DNA from: Escherichia phage FL04
Direction: 5' to 3' (one strand)
DNA length: 64,000 nucleotides
Sequence record: PP358550
Numbering within the stretch: the stretch's first letter is position 1; the number at the start of each line of letters is the position of its first letter. Both the position numbers and the translations under genes were made by a program. The notes under the pieces are model-generated. The model ran no database searches. It saw only the letters and a program-made list of their open reading frames with translations, and was not told where the DNA came from. Below are positions 13,515 through 63,495 of the stretch, in pieces.

Positions 13515-13564
13515 GATGTGAATCGGGCGGCGATAGTCGCCCAACTAATAGAGGAATGAATACT

Positions 13565-14898: not shown

Positions 14899-14906
14899 TC
14901 AACATA

Positions 14907-14930
14907 GGCCGCTTTGCGCGGCCTTTCTTA
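14907..14930 (+). terminator. rho-independent terminator
   Basis: GGCCGC-TTTGC-GCGGCC hairpin followed by TTTCTTA. Confidence 0.6.
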
Positions 14931-19464: not shown

Positions 19465-20211
19465 ATGAAAAACATTATCGCTGCTATCGTTCTTTCTGCT
19501 ACTGCTTTCGGTGCTAACGCTGCGTCCTTTGATTGCGCTAAAGCTACTACCAAATCAGAGAAGTTTATTTGTGCTAATGAGTCTATCTCCGCACTGGACT
19601 CTAAACTTCATGAGGTGTATGTTAAGGCTGTTAAGATTGATCCGTCTCTGAAACAAGAGCAACGAAACTGGAATAAAACTGTTCGTGATACAATGATCAA
19701 TATCGGGCAGATTCAGCCACTGGAGGCTGTATATAACGCTCAAATCCAAAACTTGATGAATGTATTACCTAAAGAAGAAAGCGATTCAGAGACTTCTGCG
19801 AAGGTTGAAGAAGAACAACCGAAACAGGAAGCAAAAGTGGTAGAAGAACCGAAGGTCGAAACTTTTACCTATCAATGCACCGTTCGTTATGAGTGGAGTA
19901 TGAAAGATGGAATTTCCACAAAAATTAAAGAGGCTCCACTGTATGCAAAATATGGAAACCAGCCAGGGGATCTTAAAGTAACCATTAAAAATGGGAAGAT
20001 GGTTGATTTTGTATACATTGATGAATACAACGTACACAAAGCAAACGTACAAGAAACCGTTATGACTAAAGGCGGGTTTTATAAGAATGTTGGCAAGAAA
20101 GATCTATATGAATACTCCGTTTTCGAACCAAACGACGGAACTATTCGATTTGAAAAACGTCATCCTACATTCGGTGGCGCAATTGATGTAGATCAATACG
20201 TTTGCAAGTAA
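19465..20211 (+). CDS. secreted DUF1311/LprI-like domain protein
   Basis: 248 aa; signal peptide MKNIIAAIVLSATAFGANA; FDCAKATTKSEKFICANESISALDSKLHEVY...QRNWNK pattern typical of DUF1311 (LprI-like); acidic linker; C-terminal Cys-containing domain. Confidence 0.6.
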   Translation: MKNIIAAIVLSATAFGANAASFDCAKATTKSEKFICANESISALDSKLHEVYVKAVKIDPSLKQEQRNWNKTVRDTMINIGQIQPLEAVYNAQIQNLMNVLPKEESDSETSAKVEEEQPKQEAKVVEEPKVETFTYQCTVRYEWSMKDGISTKIKEAPLYAKYGNQPGDLKVTIKNGKMVDFVYIDEYNVHKANVQETVMTKGGFYKNVGKKDLYEYSVFEPNDGTIRFEKRHPTFGGAIDVDQYVCK

Positions 20212-22458: not shown

Positions 22459-22490
22459 AAAGAAGGGGAGGCCGAAAGGCTTCCCCTTTA
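22455..22490. terminator. bidirectional terminator between convergent early (+) and late (-) units
   Basis: GGGGAGGCC-GAAA-GGCTTCCCC hairpin; T-run on - strand side (TTCTTTTTAT), short T-run on + side. Confidence 0.65.
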
Positions 22491-23422: not shown

Positions 23423-23487
23423 AGCCGTTTCTCCTTAGTAGTTTCCCCTTCCGTGGGAGTTTTCCTTAATTCTTTTTATAATTGCGT

Positions 23488-24270
23488 CTAAACAGCCGGT
23501 CCGTAAATAGCTCCGCGATTTTGCCACGTTGGAGAAGACCCTATAACAGCATATCCAGAATCGCCGCCATTATATTCAGATCCTTGACCACGAATATTAC
23601 ATCTACCTCCTGCGGCGCCTACCTCACCACCGCTTCCACCATTATAGATACCGTTCACGGACCCCGAACCGGGCGCATAAAGAGTACCAGCAGTTGCGCC
23701 TGATTGCATATCAATAGATCCGCCCGGCGCACCAAACGGACGCCCACCGCCACCGCCAAAGGTTAATCTCATTTGTGAAAAAGGAGAATAATACCCACCA
23801 CCGCCACCGCCACCGCCACCTGCAATAGCTCCACCATTATTAATTCTTAGTCTCCCACCAATATCATTTTGAATACAATGCCCACCGGCTGATCCAGGAC
23901 CATTGCTACCGCCATTCCCGCCACGACCATACATCGTTACGCCATGTATATTCAACTGAACATATTCATTCGGTGTATCTCCGTACATAAAGAATAAAGG
24001 AACATCTTTAGAATATGATACTAAATCTCCAGTGATATTAAACACTATAGGTGTACTACCTGCTTCAAAGCATCTATCACGGAACCACTGACCGTTGAAG
24101 TTATGGTCTGCACCAAGTGTATGAATAATTTCTCGCGAGCGACCTGCAAATTGACTCATCCAGCAAGGAACACCCAATCTTAATTGACCAGCCGCTTGAC
24201 TCATCCATCTTTGTCCTGTTTCATTTGCGGCTGAACTTCCAATCCAACCAGGAACACCAACTACTGCCAT
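23488..24270 (-). CDS. 38: receptor-recognising tail fibre adhesin gp38 (T2-type, glycine-rich motifs)
   Basis: 260 aa; N-terminus [48 protein letters not shown] matches T2-type gp38 attachment domain; poly-Gly motifs ([11 protein letters not shown]). Confidence 0.88.
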
Positions 24271-24285
24271 AATTTATACTCCAAA

Positions 24286-24300
24286 GGGGGCGTTGCCCCC
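24286..24300 (-). other. GC hairpin (GGGGGC-N3-GCCCCC) in the 37-38 intercistronic region, no U-tract
   Basis: Perfect 6-bp G/C stem; member of a recurring hairpin family (also 30017, 42099, 54848). Confidence 0.5.
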
Positions 24301-24306
24301 TTGTTG

Positions 24307-27105
24307 TTAGAATTTAAAATATTTACTAATTTTGCGAGCAATTTTAGTAAAGAGAGGCGTTTTCAATTCTTTAATTTCTTCACTCATTTCCTGAATAGCC
24401 TTAATTAAAAGAGCATTCACAGCGGAGTTAGAAATTGTCAGAACATCAGATCCATCAACTTCAACTTTAGACACAGCTTCCGGTAATTCTTTTTCAAGAT
24501 CCTGAGCAATAATACCAACTTCGCGTTTAATCACGCTACGATCTTTAATAGACTTAACTTTATCGTAAGTATAAACTTTCAGTCGGCAAACTTTTTCGAC
24601 CGCTCCATATTCTAATTCTTCTTTATTAATCTTGAGACGGGAGTCAGAACGAATATACACATCGCTAAAGCTACCATTTCCTGGTGTATAAAAGAATCCA
24701 TCATGATGGAATTCAAATATAGCTTGTGGGTGTCCAGCATCAGGAGAAGCCTCCGTGGATCCGACGCGAATGATTGCTTGCCCCCACTGTGATGGAATAC
24801 GACGCATACCAAAGTCAACAGCGGTGCTATATCCTTGATTGGTTATAACGCTTCTTGCTTTAAGAATAGGATAATAACTATCTTGACCAACATAACCATG
24901 ATCAACGAATAATGGAGCTTCTACTCGCCATTGGTTGCCCCAATCACCCGGTTGTCTAGCAATCCATCCAGAACCGTTAATGTGTACACGGTCGCGGTTA
25001 ACGTTAACCATTAAGGTATTTTGCGGGTTTAACGCAATCTCACCATTGTTTGTTATATGTACTGCCGCCTGAGTAGCATAGCTATAAAATGCTAGCGAAT
25101 TATCAGCACCACCTTTACCAATATACCAGTTACCATTCCCGTCTACGTCACCGCGAATATGCAAAGCGTTGCTGGCTGTAGTCGATAATACAATAGCATC
25201 ACCCGGACGTTTAATAGTCAATCGACCAGTTGATTCAACTTCACCAAAGAATTTAGTTTTAATTGCACCAGTCGCTAAAGTACGTTCAGTGGAAAAATGA
25301 GCGCCTTTACTATCTTCTAACTGAATAATGTTATCACGAGCGTTATTGCTATCACCCCAATGATTAAACCGGAAATAATCGCGTGATTGCTTACCACCCG
25401 CTTCAAACGTCAGCGTACCTTTACTTAAATTAACATCACCGCTAAAGGTAGCAGCAAGAGAACCGCCTTTTAATACTAAAGCGTTAGCACCGCTAGTGCC
25501 ACCCAAAGTAACATCGCCAGTTTTTAATTGATAGCGGAAAGGTCTATTTGTATTAAAGTTTCCATCTTGATCATTTTCGTCGGTGGAAAGAATATAAAGA
25601 CTTTCACCATCATTACGGAAAATTGTGCCAAATTTACCGCCATACATACGGAATGCATTAGATGAGCGGAATTTAACTTCTGTTTTAAATGTGGTAGTGT
25701 TATTAAGGTTAACAGTAGAGTTAAAATTGGTAGGAGCACCGAAGTTAACAGCACCATTAAAATCTTGTTGAGCTGTCCATGTGTGGCGACCATCTTCAAG
25801 AACAACACGGCGGACTGTGTAAGTTCTATTTCCAGAATTACCGAACACACGAACGACAAAATAACGGTAGTTTGTCTGGGATACAGTACCGCGCCAAACC
25901 TGAACAGTACGCCCTGTGCTAGTGTGTTCACTAGGACCAACGGAAAACATAACCAGGTTTCCGTCAATCGTCCCCCAATCCATATTTGCTGGCATGTTCT
26001 TTATTTTGTTCAAAGGAACGCTAAACATACTACCAGGAACAAAATCAAAGGTTTGCCAATCTAACTCCGCTAATTGAGCTTTAATACCACCCATACCCAA
26101 AGTAATTGGAAGAGAATAAGATGTATATACTTCGTTCCATACACCCCACGCACCACCAGTATATGCACGCTCAAAAATACGATCGCGAGTAGTTGCACCC
26201 GTTCCGGCAGTAGTAAATTTTTGGAAAATAGCACCACCAGAAGCACGCTGTTTAACTTCCAGCAAACCAACAATAACGGCTGGTAAACCTTCACCAGTAG
26301 GACAGTTAATAACGGCATCAGTGCCTAAAATGTTATATAACCCAGGAGTTTTAAAATCATTCAGATCTCCATCATAGAAAGTCGCTGGTGTGCCATGACC
26401 AACCTGCTTCCATTCCTCCCACTTAGGTGCACTAGCATCCCATGCAGCAGCGAGACAACGAGTATAAACCATACCCATGCGGGTAGTATAACGCTGCGTT
26501 CTTGTGTAGAAACCACCTTCAAATATTTCTAAAAATCCTTGTGCGGCTGATCCTTCTTCTGGATAATGGCGATCAAATGATGCGATTGCGCTTGAACTGT
26601 TTCTCCATAAGCCACAATGTTCTAATTCTCCCAAGCTATCAAGGTCAATCGTTTGTGAAAGTGGACGAGTTGACGCTTGAACATTACGCCACACACCCCA
26701 TGGACCATCTACACCATTCCATTTCGCAGACAAAGAACGGATATAAACGTTACCAGACCGAACAGTATAACGCTGAGTGCCAGCAAATTGACCAGCCACA
26801 AATACTTCTAATACACCTACAGCATTCTCTTCTGGGAATTTATTTGCTGGCTGCGCATTTGTTGAAGTTGATTTAGACCAAACGCCAGTAAATTTACCAG
26901 TAGGTCCATAATTATCTAAATTTGCATCAGATGGCAACTCACCGCGAAAGTGTCCCAAAGTAATTACATTATTGCTGTCATCTTTTGTATATAGTTCTCG
27001 ATCCGCTAGGTTAATAGCAAGTTCACCCGGAGTTAGAATATTCGCATCCGGCTTGCGACCTGCCGTACTTGTTCTTTTAAATTGGATTCTCTGTAAATCT
27101 GCCAT
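24307..27105 (-). CDS. 37: long tail fibre distal subunit gp37 with C-terminal intramolecular chaperone (S74-like) domain
   Basis: 932 aa; N-terminus MADLQRIQFKRTSTAGRKPDANILTPGELAINLADRELYTKDD matches gp37; C-terminal SDVYIRS/DSRLKINKEE...AVNALLIKAIQEM resembles autoproteolytic chaperone domain. Confidence 0.88.
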   Translation of the reverse strand: MADLQRIQFKRTSTAGRKPDANILTPGELAINLADRELYTKDDSNNVITLGHFRGELPSDANLDNYGPTGKFTGVWSKSTSTNAQPANKFPEENAVGVLEVFVAGQFAGTQRYTVRSGNVYIRSLSAKWNGVDGPWGVWRNVQASTRPLSQTIDLDSLGELEHCGLWRNSSSAIASFDRHYPEEGSAAQGFLEIFEGGFYTRTQRYTTRMGMVYTRCLAAAWDASAPKWEEWKQVGHGTPATFYDGDLNDFKTPGLYNILGTDAVINCPTGEGLPAVIVGLLEVKQRASGGAIFQKFTTAGTGATTRDRIFERAYTGGAWGVWNEVYTSYSLPITLGMGGIKAQLAELDWQTFDFVPGSMFSVPLNKIKNMPANMDWGTIDGNLVMFSVGPSEHTSTGRTVQVWRGTVSQTNYRYFVVRVFGNSGNRTYTVRRVVLEDGRHTWTAQQDFNGAVNFGAPTNFNSTVNLNNTTTFKTEVKFRSSNAFRMYGGKFGTIFRNDGESLYILSTDENDQDGNFNTNRPFRYQLKTGDVTLGGTSGANALVLKGGSLAATFSGDVNLSKGTLTFEAGGKQSRDYFRFNHWGDSNNARDNIIQLEDSKGAHFSTERTLATGAIKTKFFGEVESTGRLTIKRPGDAIVLSTTASNALHIRGDVDGNGNWYIGKGGADNSLAFYSYATQAAVHITNNGEIALNPQNTLMVNVNRDRVHINGSGWIARQPGDWGNQWRVEAPLFVDHGYVGQDSYYPILKARSVITNQGYSTAVDFGMRRIPSQWGQAIIRVGSTEASPDAGHPQAIFEFHHDGFFYTPGNGSFSDVYIRSDSRLKINKEELEYGAVEKVCRLKVYTYDKVKSIKDRSVIKREVGIIAQDLEKELPEAVSKVEVDGSDVLTISNSAVNALLIKAIQEMSEEIKELKTPLFTKIARKISKYFKF

Positions 27106-28696: not shown

Positions 28697-28704
28697 TATT
28701 TATA
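28697..28704 (-). promoter_or_regulatory. T4-type late promoter TATAAATA (for gp36)
   Basis: Exact TATAAATA on - strand about 35 nt upstream of gp36 ATG. Confidence 0.6.
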
Positions 28705-28820: not shown

Positions 28821-28853
28821 GTATAAAAATAAAGCCGACCACATGGATCGGCT
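28821..28853 (-). terminator. rho-independent terminator after gp35 (- strand)
   Basis: Hairpin AGCCGACC-ACATG-GATCGGCT (reverse complement of the 17566 terminator) followed on - strand by TTATTTTTAT. Confidence 0.7.
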
Positions 28854-28864
28854 TGTTAAAAATG

Positions 28865-30004: not shown

Positions 30005-30016
30005 AATAACCCCATA

Positions 30017-30032
30017 GGGGGCTTTCGCCCCC
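30017..30032 (-). other. GC hairpin GGGGGC-GAAA-GCCCCC (GNRA loop on - strand) between gp34 and gp35, no U-tract
   Basis: Perfect stem; 12 nt upstream of gp35 ATG. Confidence 0.5.
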
Positions 30033-30038
30033 CTTTAA

Positions 30039-33807: not shown

Positions 33808-33815
33808 TATTTATA
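33808..33815 (-). promoter_or_regulatory. T4-type late promoter TATAAATA (for gp34)
   Basis: Exact TATAAATA on - strand about 30 nt upstream of gp34 ATG. Confidence 0.6.
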
Positions 33816-40620: not shown

Positions 40621-40889
40621 TGAAAGTCGGTATTATTCAATTATGGACGGCTACCAGTGAAAACTACGCAGTAGCCGTAGATTATTACGGTTTACAATAT
40701 CTCTATGATGAAGCGAGCGCATCATGGCTTCCTGTGCAAGAAAATAGCGATATCTCAAGACCTGCTACTATATTCGACCGTGGCGTTGTCTTTATCGATA
40801 TTGACGAGACAGTAGCAAAACTGCGTAAGAAAGCAATCAATAAGAAAAAGGTGATGTGGGATGAAAGAATATTTGAAACTATTGCGTGA
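40620..40889 (+). CDS. hypothetical protein (89 aa)
   Basis: ATG 40620 overlapping upstream stop; 3-prime end overlaps td start by 29 nt. Confidence 0.45.
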   Translation: MKVGIIQLWTATSENYAVAVDYYGLQYLYDEASASWLPVQENSDISRPATIFDRGVVFIDIDETVAKLRKKAINKKKVMWDERIFETIA

Positions 40890-42093
40890 TGTTCTTGATA
40901 ATGGATGGCCTCGTGAAGACCGAACTGGGGTAGGTACGCTATCTAAATTCGGCGCAGAGATGCGAATTGATTTAAGCAAGGGTTTCCCATTACTGACCAC
41001 TAAAAAGATGGCTACAGCCTCTGTAATTGGCGAATTGCTATGGTTTATGGAGGGATCACTTGACCGCCGTCGCTTACAGGAAATTACACGCGGTAAGTTT
41101 GACGAAGAAGCCTTCGACATTTGGCGCGGCAACTGTCTTGATATGAAAGAAAAGAATCCTTTGCGATTCAATGGTTATAATGTCGGCAATATGTATGGTA
41201 TGGCATGGCGACGCAAACCGATTCATCCACACGGTGAAATCAAAATTAAGCGCGTTAAGAGCAAATATGCACATACATTTAAGCACCCGTGGGTAGAAGA
41301 CTTTACGCCAACCAATGAAACAGAAGACCGTTTATGTGCTATCTGGCGTGGTATGCGTTATGAAGAGTTTGATTCTGAATATAATCAATTCTTAGTAGCA
41401 GACCACTGGAAGACTCAATCTAATTTTGTTAATGATGCATATTGCTTGTGGGGATTCCAGGAATGGGTAGATGATGGTTATTTCGGTTATCTGCTTGATA
41501 GTGATTATCTGGGCGGGGATATTTTAGCGCCAGATACCACGATCTTTGCTAGTATGGACGTAGACACATCGAGCACTAAAGACGATGAAGAATATGTCTA
41601 TCGACCGAAGATTTGGGAAGACCAGTTACAAAACGTGATTGAACAAATTAAAAACAATCCAACGGATCGACGTATCATCATTGACTCATGGAACGTACAA
41701 GGAACACATAATGCTGTATTAGGTGTATGTCATCCTTTCGTGCAATTCTACGTCAATGAAGGTAAACTGTCTTGTATGTGGTTTCAGCGAAGCGTAGACA
41801 GCTTTTTAGGCTTGCCCTTTAACGTCGCCAGCTATGCGCTGTTAACTCACATCATAGCGAAAATGTGTGATCTTGAGGTAGGAGAACTGATTTTCTCTGG
41901 TGGAGATACTCACATTTACAAAAACCATTTTGATCAAGTTATGGAACAGTTAAGCCGTGTTCCGTTTGATAAACCAACGATTGAGTTGCCGGAATTTGAA
42001 TCTTTAGATGAGGTATTGACAAAGACTCCGAAAGACTTTAAAATTCACAACTATCAAAGCCATCCAGCAATCACCGCTCAAATGGCAGTATAA
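40861..42093 (+). CDS. td: thymidylate synthase with large internal in-frame insertion
   Basis: 410 aa; TS motifs DRTG.GT, LLWF, YG.AWR, DRRIII.SWN, active-site CHPFVQFYV, RSVDSFLGLPFN.ASYALLTHIIA, GGDTHIY; residues about 119-254 have no counterpart in canonical TS. Confidence 0.88.
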   Translation: MKEYLKLLRDVLDNGWPREDRTGVGTLSKFGAEMRIDLSKGFPLLTTKKMATASVIGELLWFMEGSLDRRRLQEITRGKFDEEAFDIWRGNCLDMKEKNPLRFNGYNVGNMYGMAWRRKPIHPHGEIKIKRVKSKYAHTFKHPWVEDFTPTNETEDRLCAIWRGMRYEEFDSEYNQFLVADHWKTQSNFVNDAYCLWGFQEWVDDGYFGYLLDSDYLGGDILAPDTTIFASMDVDTSSTKDDEEYVYRPKIWEDQLQNVIEQIKNNPTDRRIIIDSWNVQGTHNAVLGVCHPFVQFYVNEGKLSCMWFQRSVDSFLGLPFNVASYALLTHIIAKMCDLEVGELIFSGGDTHIYKNHFDQVMEQLSRVPFDKPTIELPEFESLDEVLTKTPKDFKIHNYQSHPAITAQMAV

Positions 42094-42098
42094 ACAAA

Positions 42099-42114
42099 GG
42101 GGGCGAAAGCCCCC
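42099..42114 (+). other. GC hairpin GGGGGC-GAAA-GCCCCC between td and nrdA, no U-tract
   Basis: Perfect 6-bp stem with GNRA tetraloop 6 nt after td stop. Confidence 0.5.
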
Positions 42115-42161
42115 AATATGGAGGATAAACTTGTTCCTGCTAAAATATGAAGTGAGGTAAT

Positions 42162-44413: not shown

Positions 44414-44442
44414 TTGACGCGGGGAGAAATCCCCGCTATAAT
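44414..44442 (+). promoter_or_regulatory. PeSL-type early promoter with hairpin spacer
   Basis: TTGACG-GCGGGGA-GAAA-TCCCCGC-TATAAT. Confidence 0.65.
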
Positions 44443-53357: not shown

Positions 53358-54840
53358 TATCATTAATCAGCTTGCAGCAACAGACAAAACATCGCTGAAA
53401 GAAAAGATTCTGAAAGAATCCGCGAGCAATGAAACGCTGAAAGAATGCTTTTATCTGGCATATTGCAAACAGGTTACGTTTGGCGTAAAGAAATACGATA
53501 AACCGTCTCGCTATTCGTCTGTATTGTCTTTATCCGGTGCATTACAGGTCTTTAAAAATAAACTTGCCACGCGTCAAGTAACTGGTAATGCAGCATTACA
53601 GCTAGTTACCGATACTCTGACTTGCTTGTCAGAGGATGATGCTAAAGTTGCAATGATGGTCCTGAATCGTGATCTGGAATGCGGCTGTTCCGCTACCACT
53701 GCAAACAAGGTATGGAAGAAACTGATCCCCCAGCAACCGTGCCACCTTGCATCGTCATGTTCTGATAAGACTATTGCTAATATCAAGTATCCGGCGTATG
53801 CACAACTTAAAAGCGATGGCGCTCGTGGTATGGCTGATATTGACGGGGAAACATTAGCAATCTATACCCGCTCAGGTAATACCTATCAAGGGCTTGATGA
53901 TTTGTTTGCGGTTTTAGAGCGTCTACGAGGCCGTGGAATTGTTCTAGATGGCGAATTGGTATATATGCCTACCCTTTCGCAAACACCAGCGCAGAACTTC
54001 GTTGAAAGCGTTTATGATGGTACTCTGTCATGGATATTTGAAGAAGAGGAAATGCCATTAACGCCAGTAGCGGAAGCAGTGAAAGAATCCGTTGTTGCAG
54101 ATCGTCAGACCGGAAATGGTATCCTCAACAAATCACTTAAAGGAACTATTCCAAAAGAAGAAGCCCAATGTATTGTTTACACTGTCTGGGATGTTATCGA
54201 CCGTGATGTGTATTACGGAAACGAGAAAGCAACGAAGAAATATAAAGATCGATTCGAAGAACTAAAACAGATTGTTGAAGAACTTAACGATCCTCGTGTT
54301 CAGATCATAGAAAACACTGTAGTTAACAATATCGATGAAGCTCGCGAAGTATATCATCGTTATGTCAACATGGGCTTAGAAGGTATTATCCTTAAAAATT
54401 TACATGGTGTATTTGAAGATCGCCGTAGTAAAGATCAGGTTAAATTTAAAGAAGTGATTGACTTCGACGCGGAAATTGTTGATGTATATCCGCATAGTAA
54501 AGACCCCAATAAGGTAGGCGGTTTTACTGTCCGTAGTGCGTGCGGACGAATGATGACTAACACCGGATCGGGATTAACCGACACTACAACCGAAAAAGGT
54601 GATGATGGTACTGAACGTGTAATTCCGTTCGATCGTCGAAATGAACTCGACCGAGAAATGTTATGGGCTGACCGTCATAACCTGATTGGAAAAGTCATTG
54701 AGATGACATGCAACGGGTACATTCGCAGCAAATCACGTAAAGAAGATGAACCGGAGTTCTCTTTATTTCTCCCAATCATCAAACGTATTCGCTACGACAA
54801 GACCACTGCAAATACAGTAAAAGAGGTATTCGATGTGTGA
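53338..54840 (+). CDS. 30: ATP-dependent DNA ligase gp30
   Basis: 500 aa; adenylation motif I lysine in AQLKSDGARG, downstream nucleotidyltransferase motifs; N-terminus similar to T4 ligase. Confidence 0.92.
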   Translation: MKMSILNIINQLAATDKTSLKEKILKESASNETLKECFYLAYCKQVTFGVKKYDKPSRYSSVLSLSGALQVFKNKLATRQVTGNAALQLVTDTLTCLSEDDAKVAMMVLNRDLECGCSATTANKVWKKLIPQQPCHLASSCSDKTIANIKYPAYAQLKSDGARGMADIDGETLAIYTRSGNTYQGLDDLFAVLERLRGRGIVLDGELVYMPTLSQTPAQNFVESVYDGTLSWIFEEEEMPLTPVAEAVKESVVADRQTGNGILNKSLKGTIPKEEAQCIVYTVWDVIDRDVYYGNEKATKKYKDRFEELKQIVEELNDPRVQIIENTVVNNIDEAREVYHRYVNMGLEGIILKNLHGVFEDRRSKDQVKFKEVIDFDAEIVDVYPHSKDPNKVGGFTVRSACGRMMTNTGSGLTDTTTEKGDDGTERVIPFDRRNELDREMLWADRHNLIGKVIEMTCNGYIRSKSRKEDEPEFSLFLPIIKRIRYDKTTANTVKEVFDV

Positions 54841-55309
54841 TAATGAAGGGGCGAAAGCCCCTAAACCTAAAAAATTGTCAAAGAAAGAGCAACGCCAGAT
54901 CCTGAAAATGAAATATGGTGGACGTTGTGCCTATTGTGGTGAGGAATTAGGGGATCGCTGGCACGCAGACCACATCAAACCAGTATTGCGACGCTCAAAG
55001 GTAGTCTATGATGAAAATGGACGAATTGTCCGTAATGATGATGGATCGTGGAAGTATAAGGTTGTAGGAATGCATAAACCGGAGCATGATATACTTGATA
55101 ACATGAATCCGGCATGTGTGCAATGCAATCTTTATAAAAGCTGCATGGGCTTAGAATCCTGGCGTAAGTGTATACGCGAGAACTTCCAGAAGTACATTCA
55201 GCGCAATATGGGATTGCGAGCGGCTAAACGCTTTGGCTTGCTGTCAATCCACGACCAGCCAGTAGAATTTTATTTCGAAAAGTACGATCGCGAGCATCAA
55301 GAAAAATAA
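54833..55309 (+). CDS. HNH endonuclease
   Basis: 158 aa; CAYCGEEL...WHADHIKP...NMNPACVQCN HNH motif; start overlaps ligase stop. Confidence 0.7.
   Translation: MCDNEGAKAPKPKKLSKKEQRQILKMKYGGRCAYCGEELGDRWHADHIKPVLRRSKVVYDENGRIVRNDDGSWKYKVVGMHKPEHDILDNMNPACVQCNLYKSCMGLESWRKCIRENFQKYIQRNMGLRAAKRFGLLSIHDQPVEFYFEKYDREHQEK
54848..54861 (+). other. GC hairpin GGGGC-GAAA-GCCCC within the first codons of the HNH gene
   Basis: Same core as hairpins at 30017 and 42099. Confidence 0.45.
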
Positions 55310-55321
55310 TTCAAAAAGTTG

Positions 55322-55350
55322 TTGACAGGGGATCACGTATCCCCTATACT
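55322..55350 (+). promoter_or_regulatory. PeSL-type early promoter with palindromic spacer
   Basis: TTGACA-GGGGATCACGTATCCCC-TATACT. Confidence 0.65.
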
Positions 55351-56353: not shown

Positions 56354-56872
56354 ATGTGTGGTCTTAAAATGGTTGCTGAATACAAGCGGTCTGGTAATGT
56401 TATGATGTATCGACGCAATACCAACGAAGACTGGAAACCTTCCAAACGAATTAAATCCATCCAGACGTTTATGAATAACATAAAAGAAAACCTTTTCGTT
56501 AAGCGTGCTCTGGTGTTGGACATTGGGAAGTTTACGAAGCTGTATAATTTTGAGGAAAATACTATGGAACATACTAATTTGTTTGTAGCCGAACCTTTCG
56601 TTGAAGGCAATAAAAATCTTGCTAAAACAATCATTTTGTATTCGGATTGGATCTTTTATATCGATGGGAATTTAGACGTATATTGTCGCACAACTCCAAA
56701 TGATTCGTTTTATATCGAAGAAAACGACACTCATAATCATTGGTATGATGGAAACGACAAAACAGAACTAGCTGTTGTCCTAGCGTCAGACGTAGAACCT
56801 GAAAACGCGGACAAAGTAGCAGACAAATTTATGACGTACGCATATCAAGATAAAGATGAAGATGAAGAATAA
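56354..56872 (+). CDS. hypothetical protein (172 aa)
   Basis: TGAGGATAATATTATG. Confidence 0.55.
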   Translation: MCGLKMVAEYKRSGNVMMYRRNTNEDWKPSKRIKSIQTFMNNIKENLFVKRALVLDIGKFTKLYNFEENTMEHTNLFVAEPFVEGNKNLAKTIILYSDWIFYIDGNLDVYCRTTPNDSFYIEENDTHNHWYDGNDKTELAVVLASDVEPENADKVADKFMTYAYQDKDEDEE

Positions 56873-56879
56873 AAAGTTG

Positions 56880-56909
56880 TTGACAGGGGATCGGGAGATC
56901 CCCTATAAT
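56880..56909 (+). promoter_or_regulatory. PeSL-type early promoter with palindromic spacer
   Basis: TTGACA-GGGGATCGGGAGATCCCC-TATAAT. Confidence 0.65.
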
Positions 56910-56942
56910 ACACACATACCGAAACGAAATAGGAGAATCAAA

Positions 56943-57110
56943 ATGTTCGAGACTAAAGCAGCATGTGAAGCATATATCATTGAAACCCACGGCGAAGATT
57001 ATCTGAAATTTGACATTGTAGTAGCACAGAAGATTGTAGGGATGGTTGCGAAATACCTCGGAGTTAAAGAAGGTTACTATCCTAGCAACGCACCAGAAAT
57101 TAACAAATAA
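56943..57110 (+). CDS. hypothetical small protein (55 aa)
   Basis: AGGAGAATCAAAATG. Confidence 0.5.
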   Translation: MFETKAACEAYIIETHGEDYLKFDIVVAQKIVGMVAKYLGVKEGYYPSNAPEINK

Positions 57111-57124
57111 TTTTATAAAAAGTG

Positions 57125-59965: not shown

Positions 59966-59987
59966 GGGGGCGTTAAGCCCCTTTTTC
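59966..59987 (+). terminator. rho-independent terminator
   Basis: GGGGC-GTTAA-GCCCC hairpin plus TTTTT. Confidence 0.7.
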
Positions 59988-63464: not shown

Positions 63465-63467
63465 AAA

Positions 63468-63486
63468 GGCGGGGATAATCCCCGCC
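63468..63486. terminator. bidirectional terminator between convergent genes
   Basis: GGCGGGGA-TAA-TCCCCGCC hairpin flanked by AAAAA and TTTCGTTT. Confidence 0.65.
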
Positions 63487-63495
63487 TTTCGTTTA

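What the first reader, a model, noticed from the sequence alone, without database searches (positions are those of the whole stretch)
42099..42114. Recurring GGGGGC-GAAA-GCCCCC hairpins without U-tracts at gene junctions on both strands
Nearly identical G/C-only hairpins, mostly with a GNRA-type loop, occur between td and nrdA (42099), between gp34 and gp35 on the - strand (30017), between gp37 and gp38 (24286, loop AAC) and inside the first codons of the HNH gene after the ligase (54848). None has the U-run of an intrinsic terminator. They may be RNA-processing or stability determinants, translational coupling elements, or footprints of a mobile element.
Basis: seen in the sequence. Interest (0 to 1): 0.45.

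Follow-up and report, generated by a model that had tools for sequence, protein, structure and literature searches.

The report
Stable RNA hairpins between phage genes
The repeated GGGGGC-GAAA-GCCCCC sequences are real, very stable RNA hairpins just after gene ends in an RB49-like T4-type phage; they belong to an already described class of phage stem-loops that punctuate multi-gene messages, so the finding is correct but ordinary.

Summary
The exact 16-mer is at 42099(+) and 30017(-), with near-copies at 54847(+) and 24286(-); chance expects 0.03-0.14 matches. The window is a Krischvirus (RB49-like, 99% to phage kaaroe). The four sites belong to a genome-wide set: in kaaroe 53 of 66 stable G/C hairpins lie in the 7% of the genome that is intergenic. 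RB49/phi1 'G_N-loop-C_N' stem-loops were described in 2010 as part of PeSL promoter/stem-loop cassettes. One stem-loop with no U-tract, also present at window 55327, cut reporter expression. Sibling genomes annotate the td/nrdA hairpin as a terminator. Special tetraloops are always on the sense strand, and the hairpins start 4-7 nt after the upstream stop codon. Orthologous junctions in other genera keep a hairpin with different stems, loops and U-tails. gp35, gp37, gp38 and nrdA have no promoter downstream of their hairpin, so the hairpins must be leaky. Most likely they are intra-operon RNA punctuation: a 3'-exonuclease barrier plus weak attenuation. No transcript data exist. They are not mobile-element footprints: copies share no flanks, and the same 16-mer recurs in at least 120 unrelated viral contigs. 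Novelty and interest are low.

The parts
42099..42114 (+). td|nrdA hairpin GGGGGC-GAAA-GCCCCC, no U-tract
   Evidence: -14.8 kcal/mol. Annotated as a terminator in phages TB34 and G37-3. The same hairpin is at the td|nrdA junction in Pseudotevenvirus leE and, with a compensated stem, in L008.
30016..30034 (-). gp34|gp35 hairpin AGGGGGGC-GAAA-GCCCCCU, 4 nt after the gp34 stop and 11 nt before the gp35 ATG
   Evidence: Present in Krischvirus relatives and in L027, where the loop is UUU and the tail UUUU. Absent in T4, 44RR and Slopekvirus.
24284..24302 (-). gp37|gp38 hairpin AAGGGGGC-AAC-GCCCCCUU, followed directly by the gp38 GGAG
   Evidence: Eleven different hairpin sequences occupy the same junction in T-even-type relatives.
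54847..54862 (+). Hairpin AGGGGC-GAAA-GCCCCU, 6 nt after the ligase stop, in codons 5-10 of the HNH ORF (54833-55309)
   Evidence: HNH homologues outside Krischvirus align only from residue 19-21.
   Evidence: -14.3 kcal/mol.
13525..13542 (+). Further U-less intergenic G/C hairpin (GGGCGGC-GAUA-GUCGCCC)
14906..14924 (+). Further intergenic G/C hairpin (AGGCCGC-UUUGC-GCGGCCU, tail UUCUUAGAG)
55327..55345 (+). PeSL stem-loop AGGGGAU-CACGU-AUCCCCU in the spacer of a TTGACA/TATACT promoter. It is identical to the RB49 PeSL211/210 stem-loop that was tested experimentally, and it has no U-tract.
   Evidence: Arbiol 2010.
44419..44436 (+). PeSL after nrdA: TTGAC-GCGGGGA-GAAA-UCCCCGC-TATAAT
59967..59981 (+). 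Sibling hairpin GGGGC-GUUAA-GCCCC with a UUUUUC tail (canonical terminator look)
28832..28854 (-). gp35|gp36 hairpin with a U-run, at the operon end and followed by a late promoter
   Evidence: Nolan 2006 reports a terminator predicted here in all six T4-like genomes compared.
33808..33815 (-). Late promoter TATAAATA, 29 nt before gp34
28697..28704 (-). Late promoter TATAAATA, 34 nt before gp36
42016..42044 (+). Sigma-70-type promoter TTGACA-17-TAAAAT inside the td 3' end, upstream of the 42099 hairpin
   Evidence: TTGACT-17-TATAAT lies at the homologous place in phage leE.
22463..22488 (.). 11-bp hairpin with a GAAA loop at the convergent junction after the holin gene (likely bidirectional terminator)
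   Evidence: read from the sequence.

Best explanation
The four sites are sense-strand RNA hairpins of the 'G_N-loop-C_N' stem-loop class of RB49-type phages. Three are capped by the extra-stable C(GAAA)G tetraloop. Each sits 4-7 nt after the stop codon of an upstream cistron (td, gp34, gp37, ligase), inside a polycistronic unit.

The downstream cistron (nrdA, gp35, gp38, HNH) has no promoter after the hairpin. With no U-tract as well, the hairpins most likely act as leaky punctuation rather than efficient terminators. They would pause or weakly attenuate RNA polymerase. Above all they would block 3'->5' exonucleases, giving the upstream cistron a protected 3' end after cleavage or occasional termination. 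This would set the ratio of upstream to downstream product.

Shown here: the hairpins exist, are enriched in intergenic DNA, are biased to the sense strand, hug stop codons, are kept at some orthologous junctions, and lie within operons. Inferred, not shown: the barrier and attenuator activity.
For: 1. Enrichment. In the closest complete genome, 53 of 66 hairpins with dG <= -10 are intergenic, although 93% of the genome is coding. Block shuffles give 0-2 intergenic.
2. Strand bias. In kaaroe, 11 of 13 intergenic tetraloops are GNRA or UNCG on the sense strand and none on the antisense. Among unrelated viral contigs carrying the exact 16-mer, flanking ORFs run with the GAAA strand in 41 cases against 1.
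3. Position. Stop-to-hairpin distance is 4-12 nt in 22 of 33 promoter-less hairpins.
4. Conservation with change. There are 11 different hairpins at the g37|g38 junction (GGGGC/GCCCC, GGGCC/GGCCC, GAGGGC/GCCCUC; loops AAC, AUU, UUCG, CUCG, UUAG). td|nrdA has GGGGGC-GAAA-GCCCC in another genus and GGAGGC-GAAA-GCCUCC in a third lineage, with U-tails that vary.
5. Read-through is required. Perfect late promoters occur only before gp34 and gp36. The nrdA promoter lies upstream of the hairpin.
6. Literature. E. coli RNA polymerase needs at least 3 U next to the hairpin, and U-less 3' structures may instead stabilise RNA or define processed ends (PMC3993855). A 2026 preprint makes the U-tract a defining terminator feature.
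7. The class is described for RB49/phi1 (PMC2839356; PMC4122927).
Against: There are no transcript-end or half-life data for any RB49-like phage. The activity is therefore inferred.

Arbiol et al. report that the PeSL211/210 stem-loop, which has no U-tract, lowered lacZ as much as rrnB T1. If that generalises, these hairpins could terminate strongly.

The split between U-less and U-tailed hairpins is a continuum. It does not correlate significantly with a downstream promoter (p = 0.43) or with early versus late genes (p = 0.11).

The gp34|gp35 hairpin is missing in T4, 44RR and Slopekvirus, so it is not essential for tail-fibre operons in general.
Confidence: 0.6

Rival explanations
1. They are efficient transcription terminators despite lacking a U-tract. 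Termination might need a host or phage factor or phage-modified RNA polymerase, and downstream genes would be expressed from the minority of read-through transcripts.
For: The U-less stem-loop of RB49 PeSL211/210, identical to window 55327-55345, reduced lacZ like rrnB T1 (Arbiol 2010). Orthologous td|nrdA and gp34|gp35 hairpins in other lineages carry U-runs. ARNOLD and other annotators call 42099 a terminator.
Against: gp35, gp37, gp38 and nrdA have no promoter after the hairpin. E. coli RNA polymerase needs U residues next to the hairpin. The lacZ assay cannot separate termination from RNA processing or decay.
Confidence: 0.2
2. They act on translation. They might insulate or present the downstream ribosome-binding site. 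At the ligase/HNH site, a hairpin at +15 to +30 of the HNH start might make HNH translation depend on ribosomes that finish the ligase gene and melt the stem.
For: In T4 the orthologous g37|g38 UUCG hairpin is the known 'split RBS' element that brings the SD close to the AUG of gene 38 (PMC3014915). The HNH ATG overlaps the ligase stop (ATGTGTGA), and the hairpin begins 14 nt after that ATG. Homing-endonuclease genes of T4-type phages are often held down by RNA hairpins.
Against: In this window the SD sequences of gp38, gp35 and nrdA lie downstream of the hairpin at normal spacing and are not sequestered. The nrdA start is 47 nt away. This cannot explain the genome-wide population or the convergent-junction members.
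Confidence: 0.1
3. They are terminators for antisense transcription. The A-rich 5' flank on the sense strand gives a U-rich tail on the opposite strand.
For: The terminator scan flags 42099 and 30017 only on the antisense strand (GGGGGCUUUCGCCCCC-UUUGUUUAUA and -CUUUAAUUAG). All four antisense tails are more U-rich than the sense tails.
Against: Special tetraloops are on the sense strand in 11 cases against 0, and 41 against 1 across phages. The A-rich 5' flank is largely the stop codon plus AT-rich spacer. No antisense promoters are evident: TATAAATA occurs only 3 times in the window, none positioned to read towards these sites.
Confidence: 0.05
4. They are DNA-level elements: footprints of a mobile element, HNH targets or recombination linkers.
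For: PeSL cassettes containing similar stem-loops do bound indels between this window and RB49 (Arbiol 2010). One copy touches an HNH gene.
Against: The copies share no sequence beyond the hairpin. There are no terminal repeats or target duplications. All Krischvirus sequences inspected have them, and other genera have them at two of the same junctions. The breakpoints of the imported gp37-gp38 cassette (23478, 27000) do not coincide with hairpins. The orientation follows the direction of transcription on both strands.
Confidence: 0.03

Closest known systems
Stem-loop structure (SLS, 'G_N-loop-C_N') of the PeSL cassettes of phages RB49 and phi1 (Arbiol et al. 2010; Comeau et al. 2014)
   Same: Same phage group. 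Same poly-G/poly-C stems, intergenic position just after the upstream stop codon, and often no U-tract. Bona fide PeSLs with such stem-loops are in this window (44419, 55327, 55721 and others).
   Different: Three of the four sites (30017, 24286, 54847) have no sigma-70 promoter or AT-rich UP region. They lie in core or late operons rather than before ORFans in hyperplastic regions, and they share no ~100-bp cassette similarity. At 42099 a promoter exists, but it is 55 nt upstream inside td.
Extra-stable tetraloop hairpins of T4 intercistronic regions (C(UUCG)G, Tuerk et al. 1988; C(GNRA)G)
   Same: Short G/C stems closed by C-G around a special tetraloop, on the mRNA sense strand between cistrons. 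The g37|g38 junction of T-even phages carries the UUCG version of the same hairpin.
   Different: Here the loop is GAAA or AAC rather than UUCG. No biochemical data exist for these copies.
Intrinsic (Rho-independent) terminators
   Same: G/C-rich hairpin just after a gene. Orthologues in other lineages have U-runs. The exact 16-mer is followed by a T-rich tail in 59 of 121 occurrences in unrelated viral contigs.
   Different: There is no U-tract at three sites and only UUU at the fourth. The downstream genes depend on read-through.
Intercistronic mRNA-stabilising stem-loops (REP-type 3' exonuclease barriers within operons)
   Same: A stable stem-loop inside an operon, directly after an upstream cistron, without terminator features.
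   Different: They are not an extended repeat family with conserved flanks. The stabilising activity is untested here.
Split ribosome-binding-site hairpin of T4 genes 38 and 25
   Same: Orthologous junction (g37|g38) and similar hairpin.
   Different: In this window the SD lies after the hairpin at normal spacing, so the hairpin does not bridge SD and AUG.

Membership tests
Intrinsic terminator | G/C-rich RNA hairpin | tested here: met
   dG -12.6 to -16.5 kcal/mol.
Intrinsic terminator | U-tract (at least 3 U adjacent, 7-9 nt U-rich) directly after the stem on the transcribed strand | tested here: not met
   The tails are AAUAUGGAG, UAUGGGGUU and AAACCUAAA. Only 24286 has UUU. The simple scan flags 42099 and 30017 on the antisense strand only.
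Intrinsic terminator | Lies at the end of a transcription unit | tested here: not met
   There is no promoter between the hairpin and gp35, gp37, gp38 or nrdA.
Intrinsic terminator | RNA polymerase releases the transcript at the site | not testable with these tools
   This needs in vitro transcription or 3'-end mapping.
PeSL cassette (RB49/phi1) | G_N-loop-C_N stem-loop in an intergenic region after the upstream stop codon | tested here: met
PeSL cassette (RB49/phi1) | Near-consensus sigma-70 promoter (-35/-10) overlapping or adjoining the stem-loop, with an AT-rich upstream region | tested here: not met
   None at 30017, 24286 or 54847. At 42099 an 11/12 promoter lies 55 nt upstream within td, which is outside the five described arrangements.
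PeSL cassette (RB49/phi1) | About 100 bp of sequence similarity among copies; location before ORFans in hyperplastic regions | tested here: not met
   The flanks of the four copies are unrelated. The neighbours are td/nrdA, gp34/35, gp37/38 and ligase.
Extra-stable tetraloop intercistronic hairpins (T4 type) | C-G closing pair around a UNCG or GNRA tetraloop, on the sense strand, between cistrons | tested here: met
   C(GAAA)G at 42099, 30017 and 54847, all on the sense strand. 24286 has the triloop AAC, but its orthologues carry C(UUCG)G.
Split-RBS hairpin (T4 genes 38/25) | SD upstream and AUG downstream of the hairpin, so that folding restores the spacing | tested here: not met
   GGAG lies downstream of the hairpin, 8 nt before the gp38 ATG. 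T4 itself shows the split arrangement.
Operon-internal mRNA stabiliser (3' exonuclease barrier) | Stable stem-loop directly after an upstream cistron inside a polycistronic unit | tested here: met
Operon-internal mRNA stabiliser (3' exonuclease barrier) | The upstream RNA segment is stabilised and 3' ends accumulate at the stem base | not testable with these tools
   No transcript data were found for RB49-like phages.
Miniature mobile element / footprint | Conserved flanks, terminal repeats, target duplication, presence/absence polymorphism | tested here: not met
   No shared flanks. Present in every Krischvirus sequence inspected, and at the same junction in other genera.

The most novel reading that the evidence does not exclude
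The promoter-less, U-less hairpins could be a distinct functional class: translation-gated attenuators, or terminators specific to phage-modified RNA polymerase. Each stem starts only 4-7 nt after a stop codon, so a ribosome finishing the upstream cistron would mask the 5' arm. The polymerase would then read through only when the upstream gene is being translated, and the naked hairpin would stop or destabilise untranslated transcripts. This would reconcile the strong effect of an isolated U-less stem-loop in the lacZ assay with the need for read-through in the phage.
Probability: 0.12. Interest if true: 0.5.

Novelty: new member of a known kind. Interest (0 to 1): 0.2.

Why it matters
For annotation, these sequences should be labelled as intercistronic stem-loops (leaky punctuation), not as operon-ending terminators or mobile-element scars. 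For phage biology, they give a simple, testable handle on how T4-type phages set unequal expression of neighbouring genes within one transcript: tail-fibre subunits against connector or adhesin, and ligase against a potentially toxic HNH nuclease. For engineering of RB49-like therapeutic phages, swapping tail-fibre cassettes carries these hairpins along, as happened naturally in this window. Nothing here challenges current understanding.

Tried and rejected
- Rfam scan of the whole window at gathering threshold gave no family.
- PeSL membership was rejected for three sites and is only loosely met for 42099, because no adjoining promoter exists.
- Mobile-element or MITE reading was rejected. 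There are no shared flanks, and the cassette breakpoints against kaaroe (23478, 27000) are not at hairpins.
- Split-RBS reading was rejected for this window, although it is true for T4.
- I tested whether U-tailed hairpins mark operon ends and U-less ones mark operon interiors genome-wide, and whether U-less ones are enriched in late genes. Both trends go the expected way but are not significant (p = 0.43 and p = 0.11).
- My first hairpin census underestimated stabilities through a scripting error and missed two of the sites. It was redone with full folding.
- Literature searches for T4 Term-seq or RB49 RNA-seq data found nothing usable. The T4 genome review and Tuerk 1988 are not held.
- The IMG/VR searches with NrdA and gp35 returned only 3-5 loci, so the cross-genus comparison rests on few lineages.

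Full report
**Observation.** GGGGGCGAAAGCCCCC is exact at 42099-42114 on the + strand and at 30017-30032 on the - strand. AGGGGCGAAAGCCCCT is at 54847-54862. On the - strand, GGGGGCAACGCCCCC is at 24286-24300. A fifth relative, GGGGCGTTAAGCCCC at 59967, is followed by TTTTTC. Shuffles that keep dinucleotide content expect 0.14 matches for the 16-mer with up to three mismatches (3 seen) and 0.03 for GGGGC-N3-8-GCCCC (5 seen). As RNA the sites fold at -12.6 to -16.5 kcal/mol, z = -2.4 to -3.6. The sense-strand tails are AAUAUGGAG, UAUGGGGUU, UUUGGAGUA and AAACCUAAA. 'No U-run' is therefore correct for three sites and nearly so for the fourth.

**Context.** The window is a Krischvirus, an RB49-like T4-type phage, 99.4% identical to Escherichia phage kaaroe around td-nrdA.
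- 42099 lies 5 nt after the td stop and 47 nt before nrdA.
- 30017 lies 4 nt after the gp34 stop and 11 nt before gp35.
- 24286 lies 4-6 nt after the gp37 stop and 13-15 nt before a gp38 adhesin (Pfam GP38 and Gp38_N).
- 54847 lies 6 nt after the ligase stop, within codons 5-10 of an ORF with an HNH domain at residues 32-53.
Annotators of two sibling genomes already mark the td/nrdA hairpin as a terminator, one of them by ARNOLD.

**A genome-wide population, not four oddities.** I assembled the whole kaaroe genome with its 263 annotated genes (93% coding). I then listed every perfect hairpin with a stem of at least 5 bp, at least 4 G-C pairs and a loop of 3-8 nt.
- With full folding, 66 hairpins have dG <= -10 kcal/mol, and 53 of them are intergenic. 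Block shuffles give 1-15 in total and 0-2 intergenic.
- The intergenic ones fall into three overlapping groups. About 23 sit within a TTGAC...TATAAT promoter. About 17 have a T-rich tail. About 15 are 'bare'.
- The window itself holds about 26 intergenic hairpins. The bare ones are at 13525, 14906, 24284, 27150, 30016 and 42099, plus 54847.

**What is already known.**
- Arbiol et al. 2010 described about 51-52 'PeSL' cassettes in RB49 and phi1. [quoted passage not shown] They proposed the stem-loop as a terminator/attenuator.
- Comeau et al. 2014 call it the 'G_N-loop-C_N' sequence.
- The stem-loop of PeSL211/210, cloned alone, lowered lacZ as much as rrnB T1. I located that element in RB49. 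It is AGGGGAU-CACGU-AUCCCCU followed by AUACUACAC, so it has no U-tract. An identical copy is at window 55327-55345.
- In T-even phages, extra-stable C(UUCG)G hairpins in intercistronic regions have been known since 1988 (cited).
- The T4 g37|g38 hairpin is the known 'split RBS' element of gene 38.

**Evidence that the hairpins act as sense-strand RNA.**
- Thirteen intergenic hairpins of kaaroe have tetraloops. Eleven are GNRA or UNCG on the sense strand and none on the antisense strand.
- The exact 16-mer occurs in at least 120 unrelated IMG/VR contigs. Where both flanks are clearly coding on one strand, that strand is the GAAA strand in 41 cases against 1.
- In that sample 59 of 121 copies have a T-rich tail, 27 have an A-rich 5' flank and 47 have neither. 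Many of the last group lie between a stop codon and a Shine-Dalgarno sequence.
- The hairpin is therefore a generic form that arises convergently. It is not a lineage-specific repeat.
- In kaaroe the distance from stop codon to stem is 4-12 nt for 22 of 33 promoter-less hairpins.

**Comparative evidence.**
- At the g37|g38 junction, thirteen relatives of the gp38 gene plus T4 give eleven different sequences, and all fold into a hairpin of -10 to -15 kcal/mol. The stems are GGGGGC/GCCCCC, GGGGC/GCCCC, GGGCC/GGCCC and GAGGGC/GCCCUC. The loops are AAC, AUU, UUCG, CUCG and UUAG.
- At td|nrdA, the Pseudotevenvirus leE (about 68% identical in nrdA) has ...GCAGTATAAACAAAGGGGGCGAAAGCCCC followed by UUUCUUAAC. 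A third lineage (L008) has GGAGGC-GAAA-GCCUCC followed by UUUUUUAU.
- At gp34|gp35, contig L027 has GGGGGC-UUU-GCCCCC-UUUU. T4, 44RR and a Slopekvirus have no room for a hairpin at this junction.
- The stem is thus the selected feature at two junctions. The U-tail comes and goes, and one junction hairpin is lineage-limited.

**Operon logic.**
- Perfect late promoters (TATAAATA) on the tail-fibre strand occur only 29 nt before gp34 and 34 nt before gp36. The only near-match close to gp38 ends 1 nt before its ATG.
- The units are therefore P-gp34-[30017]-gp35-[U-tailed hairpin 28854-28832], and then P-gp36-[27150]-gp37-[24286]-gp38-...-holin-[hairpin 22463-22488].
- gp35, gp37 and gp38 can only be made from transcripts that pass the hairpins.
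- For nrdA, an 11/12 sigma-70 promoter (42016-42044) lies inside the td 3' end, upstream of the hairpin. TTGACT-17-TATAAT sits at the homologous place in leE.
- E. coli RNA polymerase needs U residues adjacent to the hairpin, and U-less 3' structures are more plausibly stability or processing determinants.
- Together this favours leaky punctuation, meaning an exonuclease barrier plus weak attenuation, over efficient termination.

**The HNH site.** All 58 Krischvirus hits carry the HNH gene after the ligase. The 103 homologues outside the genus align only from residue 19-21 onward. The hairpin therefore lies in a Krischvirus-specific N-terminal extension. That fits an original ligase 3' hairpin over which the HNH reading frame now starts; its ATG overlaps the ligase stop. 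A role in restricting HNH translation to ribosomes arriving from the ligase gene is possible but untested.

**Caveats and rivals.**
- No transcript data exist for RB49-like phages, so the mechanism is inferred.
- The lacZ result for a U-less stem-loop keeps the 'real terminator' rival alive. The assay cannot separate termination from RNA decay.
- The simple terminator scan flags 42099 and 30017 only on the antisense strand, because the sense 5' flank is A-rich. The sense-strand tetraloop bias argues against an antisense role.
- U-less versus U-tailed is a continuum. Its association with a downstream promoter (p = 0.43) or with late genes (p = 0.11) is not significant.
- The mobile-element reading fails. 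The copies share no flanks. The hairpins are fixed in every sequence inspected. The imported gp37-gp38 cassette has breakpoints at 23478 and 27000, not at hairpins.

**Verdict.** The elements are new members of a known kind: promoter-less copies of the RB49-type G/C stem-loop, equivalent to the extra-stable tetraloop hairpins of T-even intercistronic regions. They most likely serve as leaky RNA punctuation inside operons. Interest is low.

Noticed in passing
window 23479-26999: The C-terminal part of gp37 plus a gp38 adhesin form a T2/T6-type cassette. It is about 94% identical to Tequatrovirus-like and Yersinia phages and 99% to Krischvirus KMB43, and it sits in a Krischvirus backbone. The closest genome, kaaroe, has no gp38 and an unrelated gp37 tip. 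This looks like host-range module exchange across genera.
   Followed up: partly
window 55287-55293 and 56871-57111 versus L149 (RB49 116000-127000): The window lacks RB49 ORF211 (about 355 nt) and about 4 kb of the RB49 ORF192-205 region. Both indels end at PeSL promoter/stem-loop repeats, as the PeSL shuffling model predicts.
   Followed up: partly
window 40861-42093: The thymidylate synthase ORF is 410 aa, and the 266-position Pfam ThyA profile spans residues 2-410. The protein therefore carries an insertion of about 140 aa within the domain; phage leE has a normal 284-aa td. The nature of the insertion is unknown.
   Followed up: no
window 42016-42044; L150 about 19945-19975: A near-consensus sigma-70 promoter is embedded in the last codons of td (TTGACA-17-TAAAAT). 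The equivalent position in the distant phage leE has TTGACT-17-TATAAT. This is probably a conserved nrdA promoter inside coding sequence.
   Followed up: partly
window 42118-42150: A 10-codon mini-ORF (ATGGAGGATAAACTTGTTCCTGCTAAAATATGA) with a GGAG motif begins 3 nt after the td|nrdA hairpin. GGAG is the target of the RegB endoribonuclease of T4-type phages (kaaroe encodes a homologue). Cleavage there would leave the hairpin at the 3' end of the td message.
   Followed up: no
window 22463-22488 and 63465-63489: Long G/C hairpins (11 bp with a GAAA loop; AAAGGCGGGG-AUAAU-CCCCGCCUUU) sit exactly at the two convergent gene junctions. They are likely bidirectional terminators. The first contains a G-U pair and was missed by my perfect-stem census.
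   Followed up: no
window 17891, 18913, 19184, 19417, 44419, 47254, 47480, 55327, 55721, 56885, 57130, 59439, 59696: There are thirteen PeSL-type cassettes, in two sequence subfamilies. In one the stem-loop fills the -35/-10 spacer (TTGAC-AGGGGA...TCCCCT-ATAAT). In the other the stem-loop overlaps the -10 (GGGAGT-AGTAANAT-ACTCCC).
   Followed up: partly
L150 22290-22335 (phage leE): In phage leE an HNH gene inserted after nrdA is directly preceded by a canonical GAAA-loop terminator (AAGCCCC-GAAA-GGGGCUU-UUUGAU), 5 nt before its ATG. This is another case of a homing-type nuclease gene placed right behind a hairpin.
   Followed up: no
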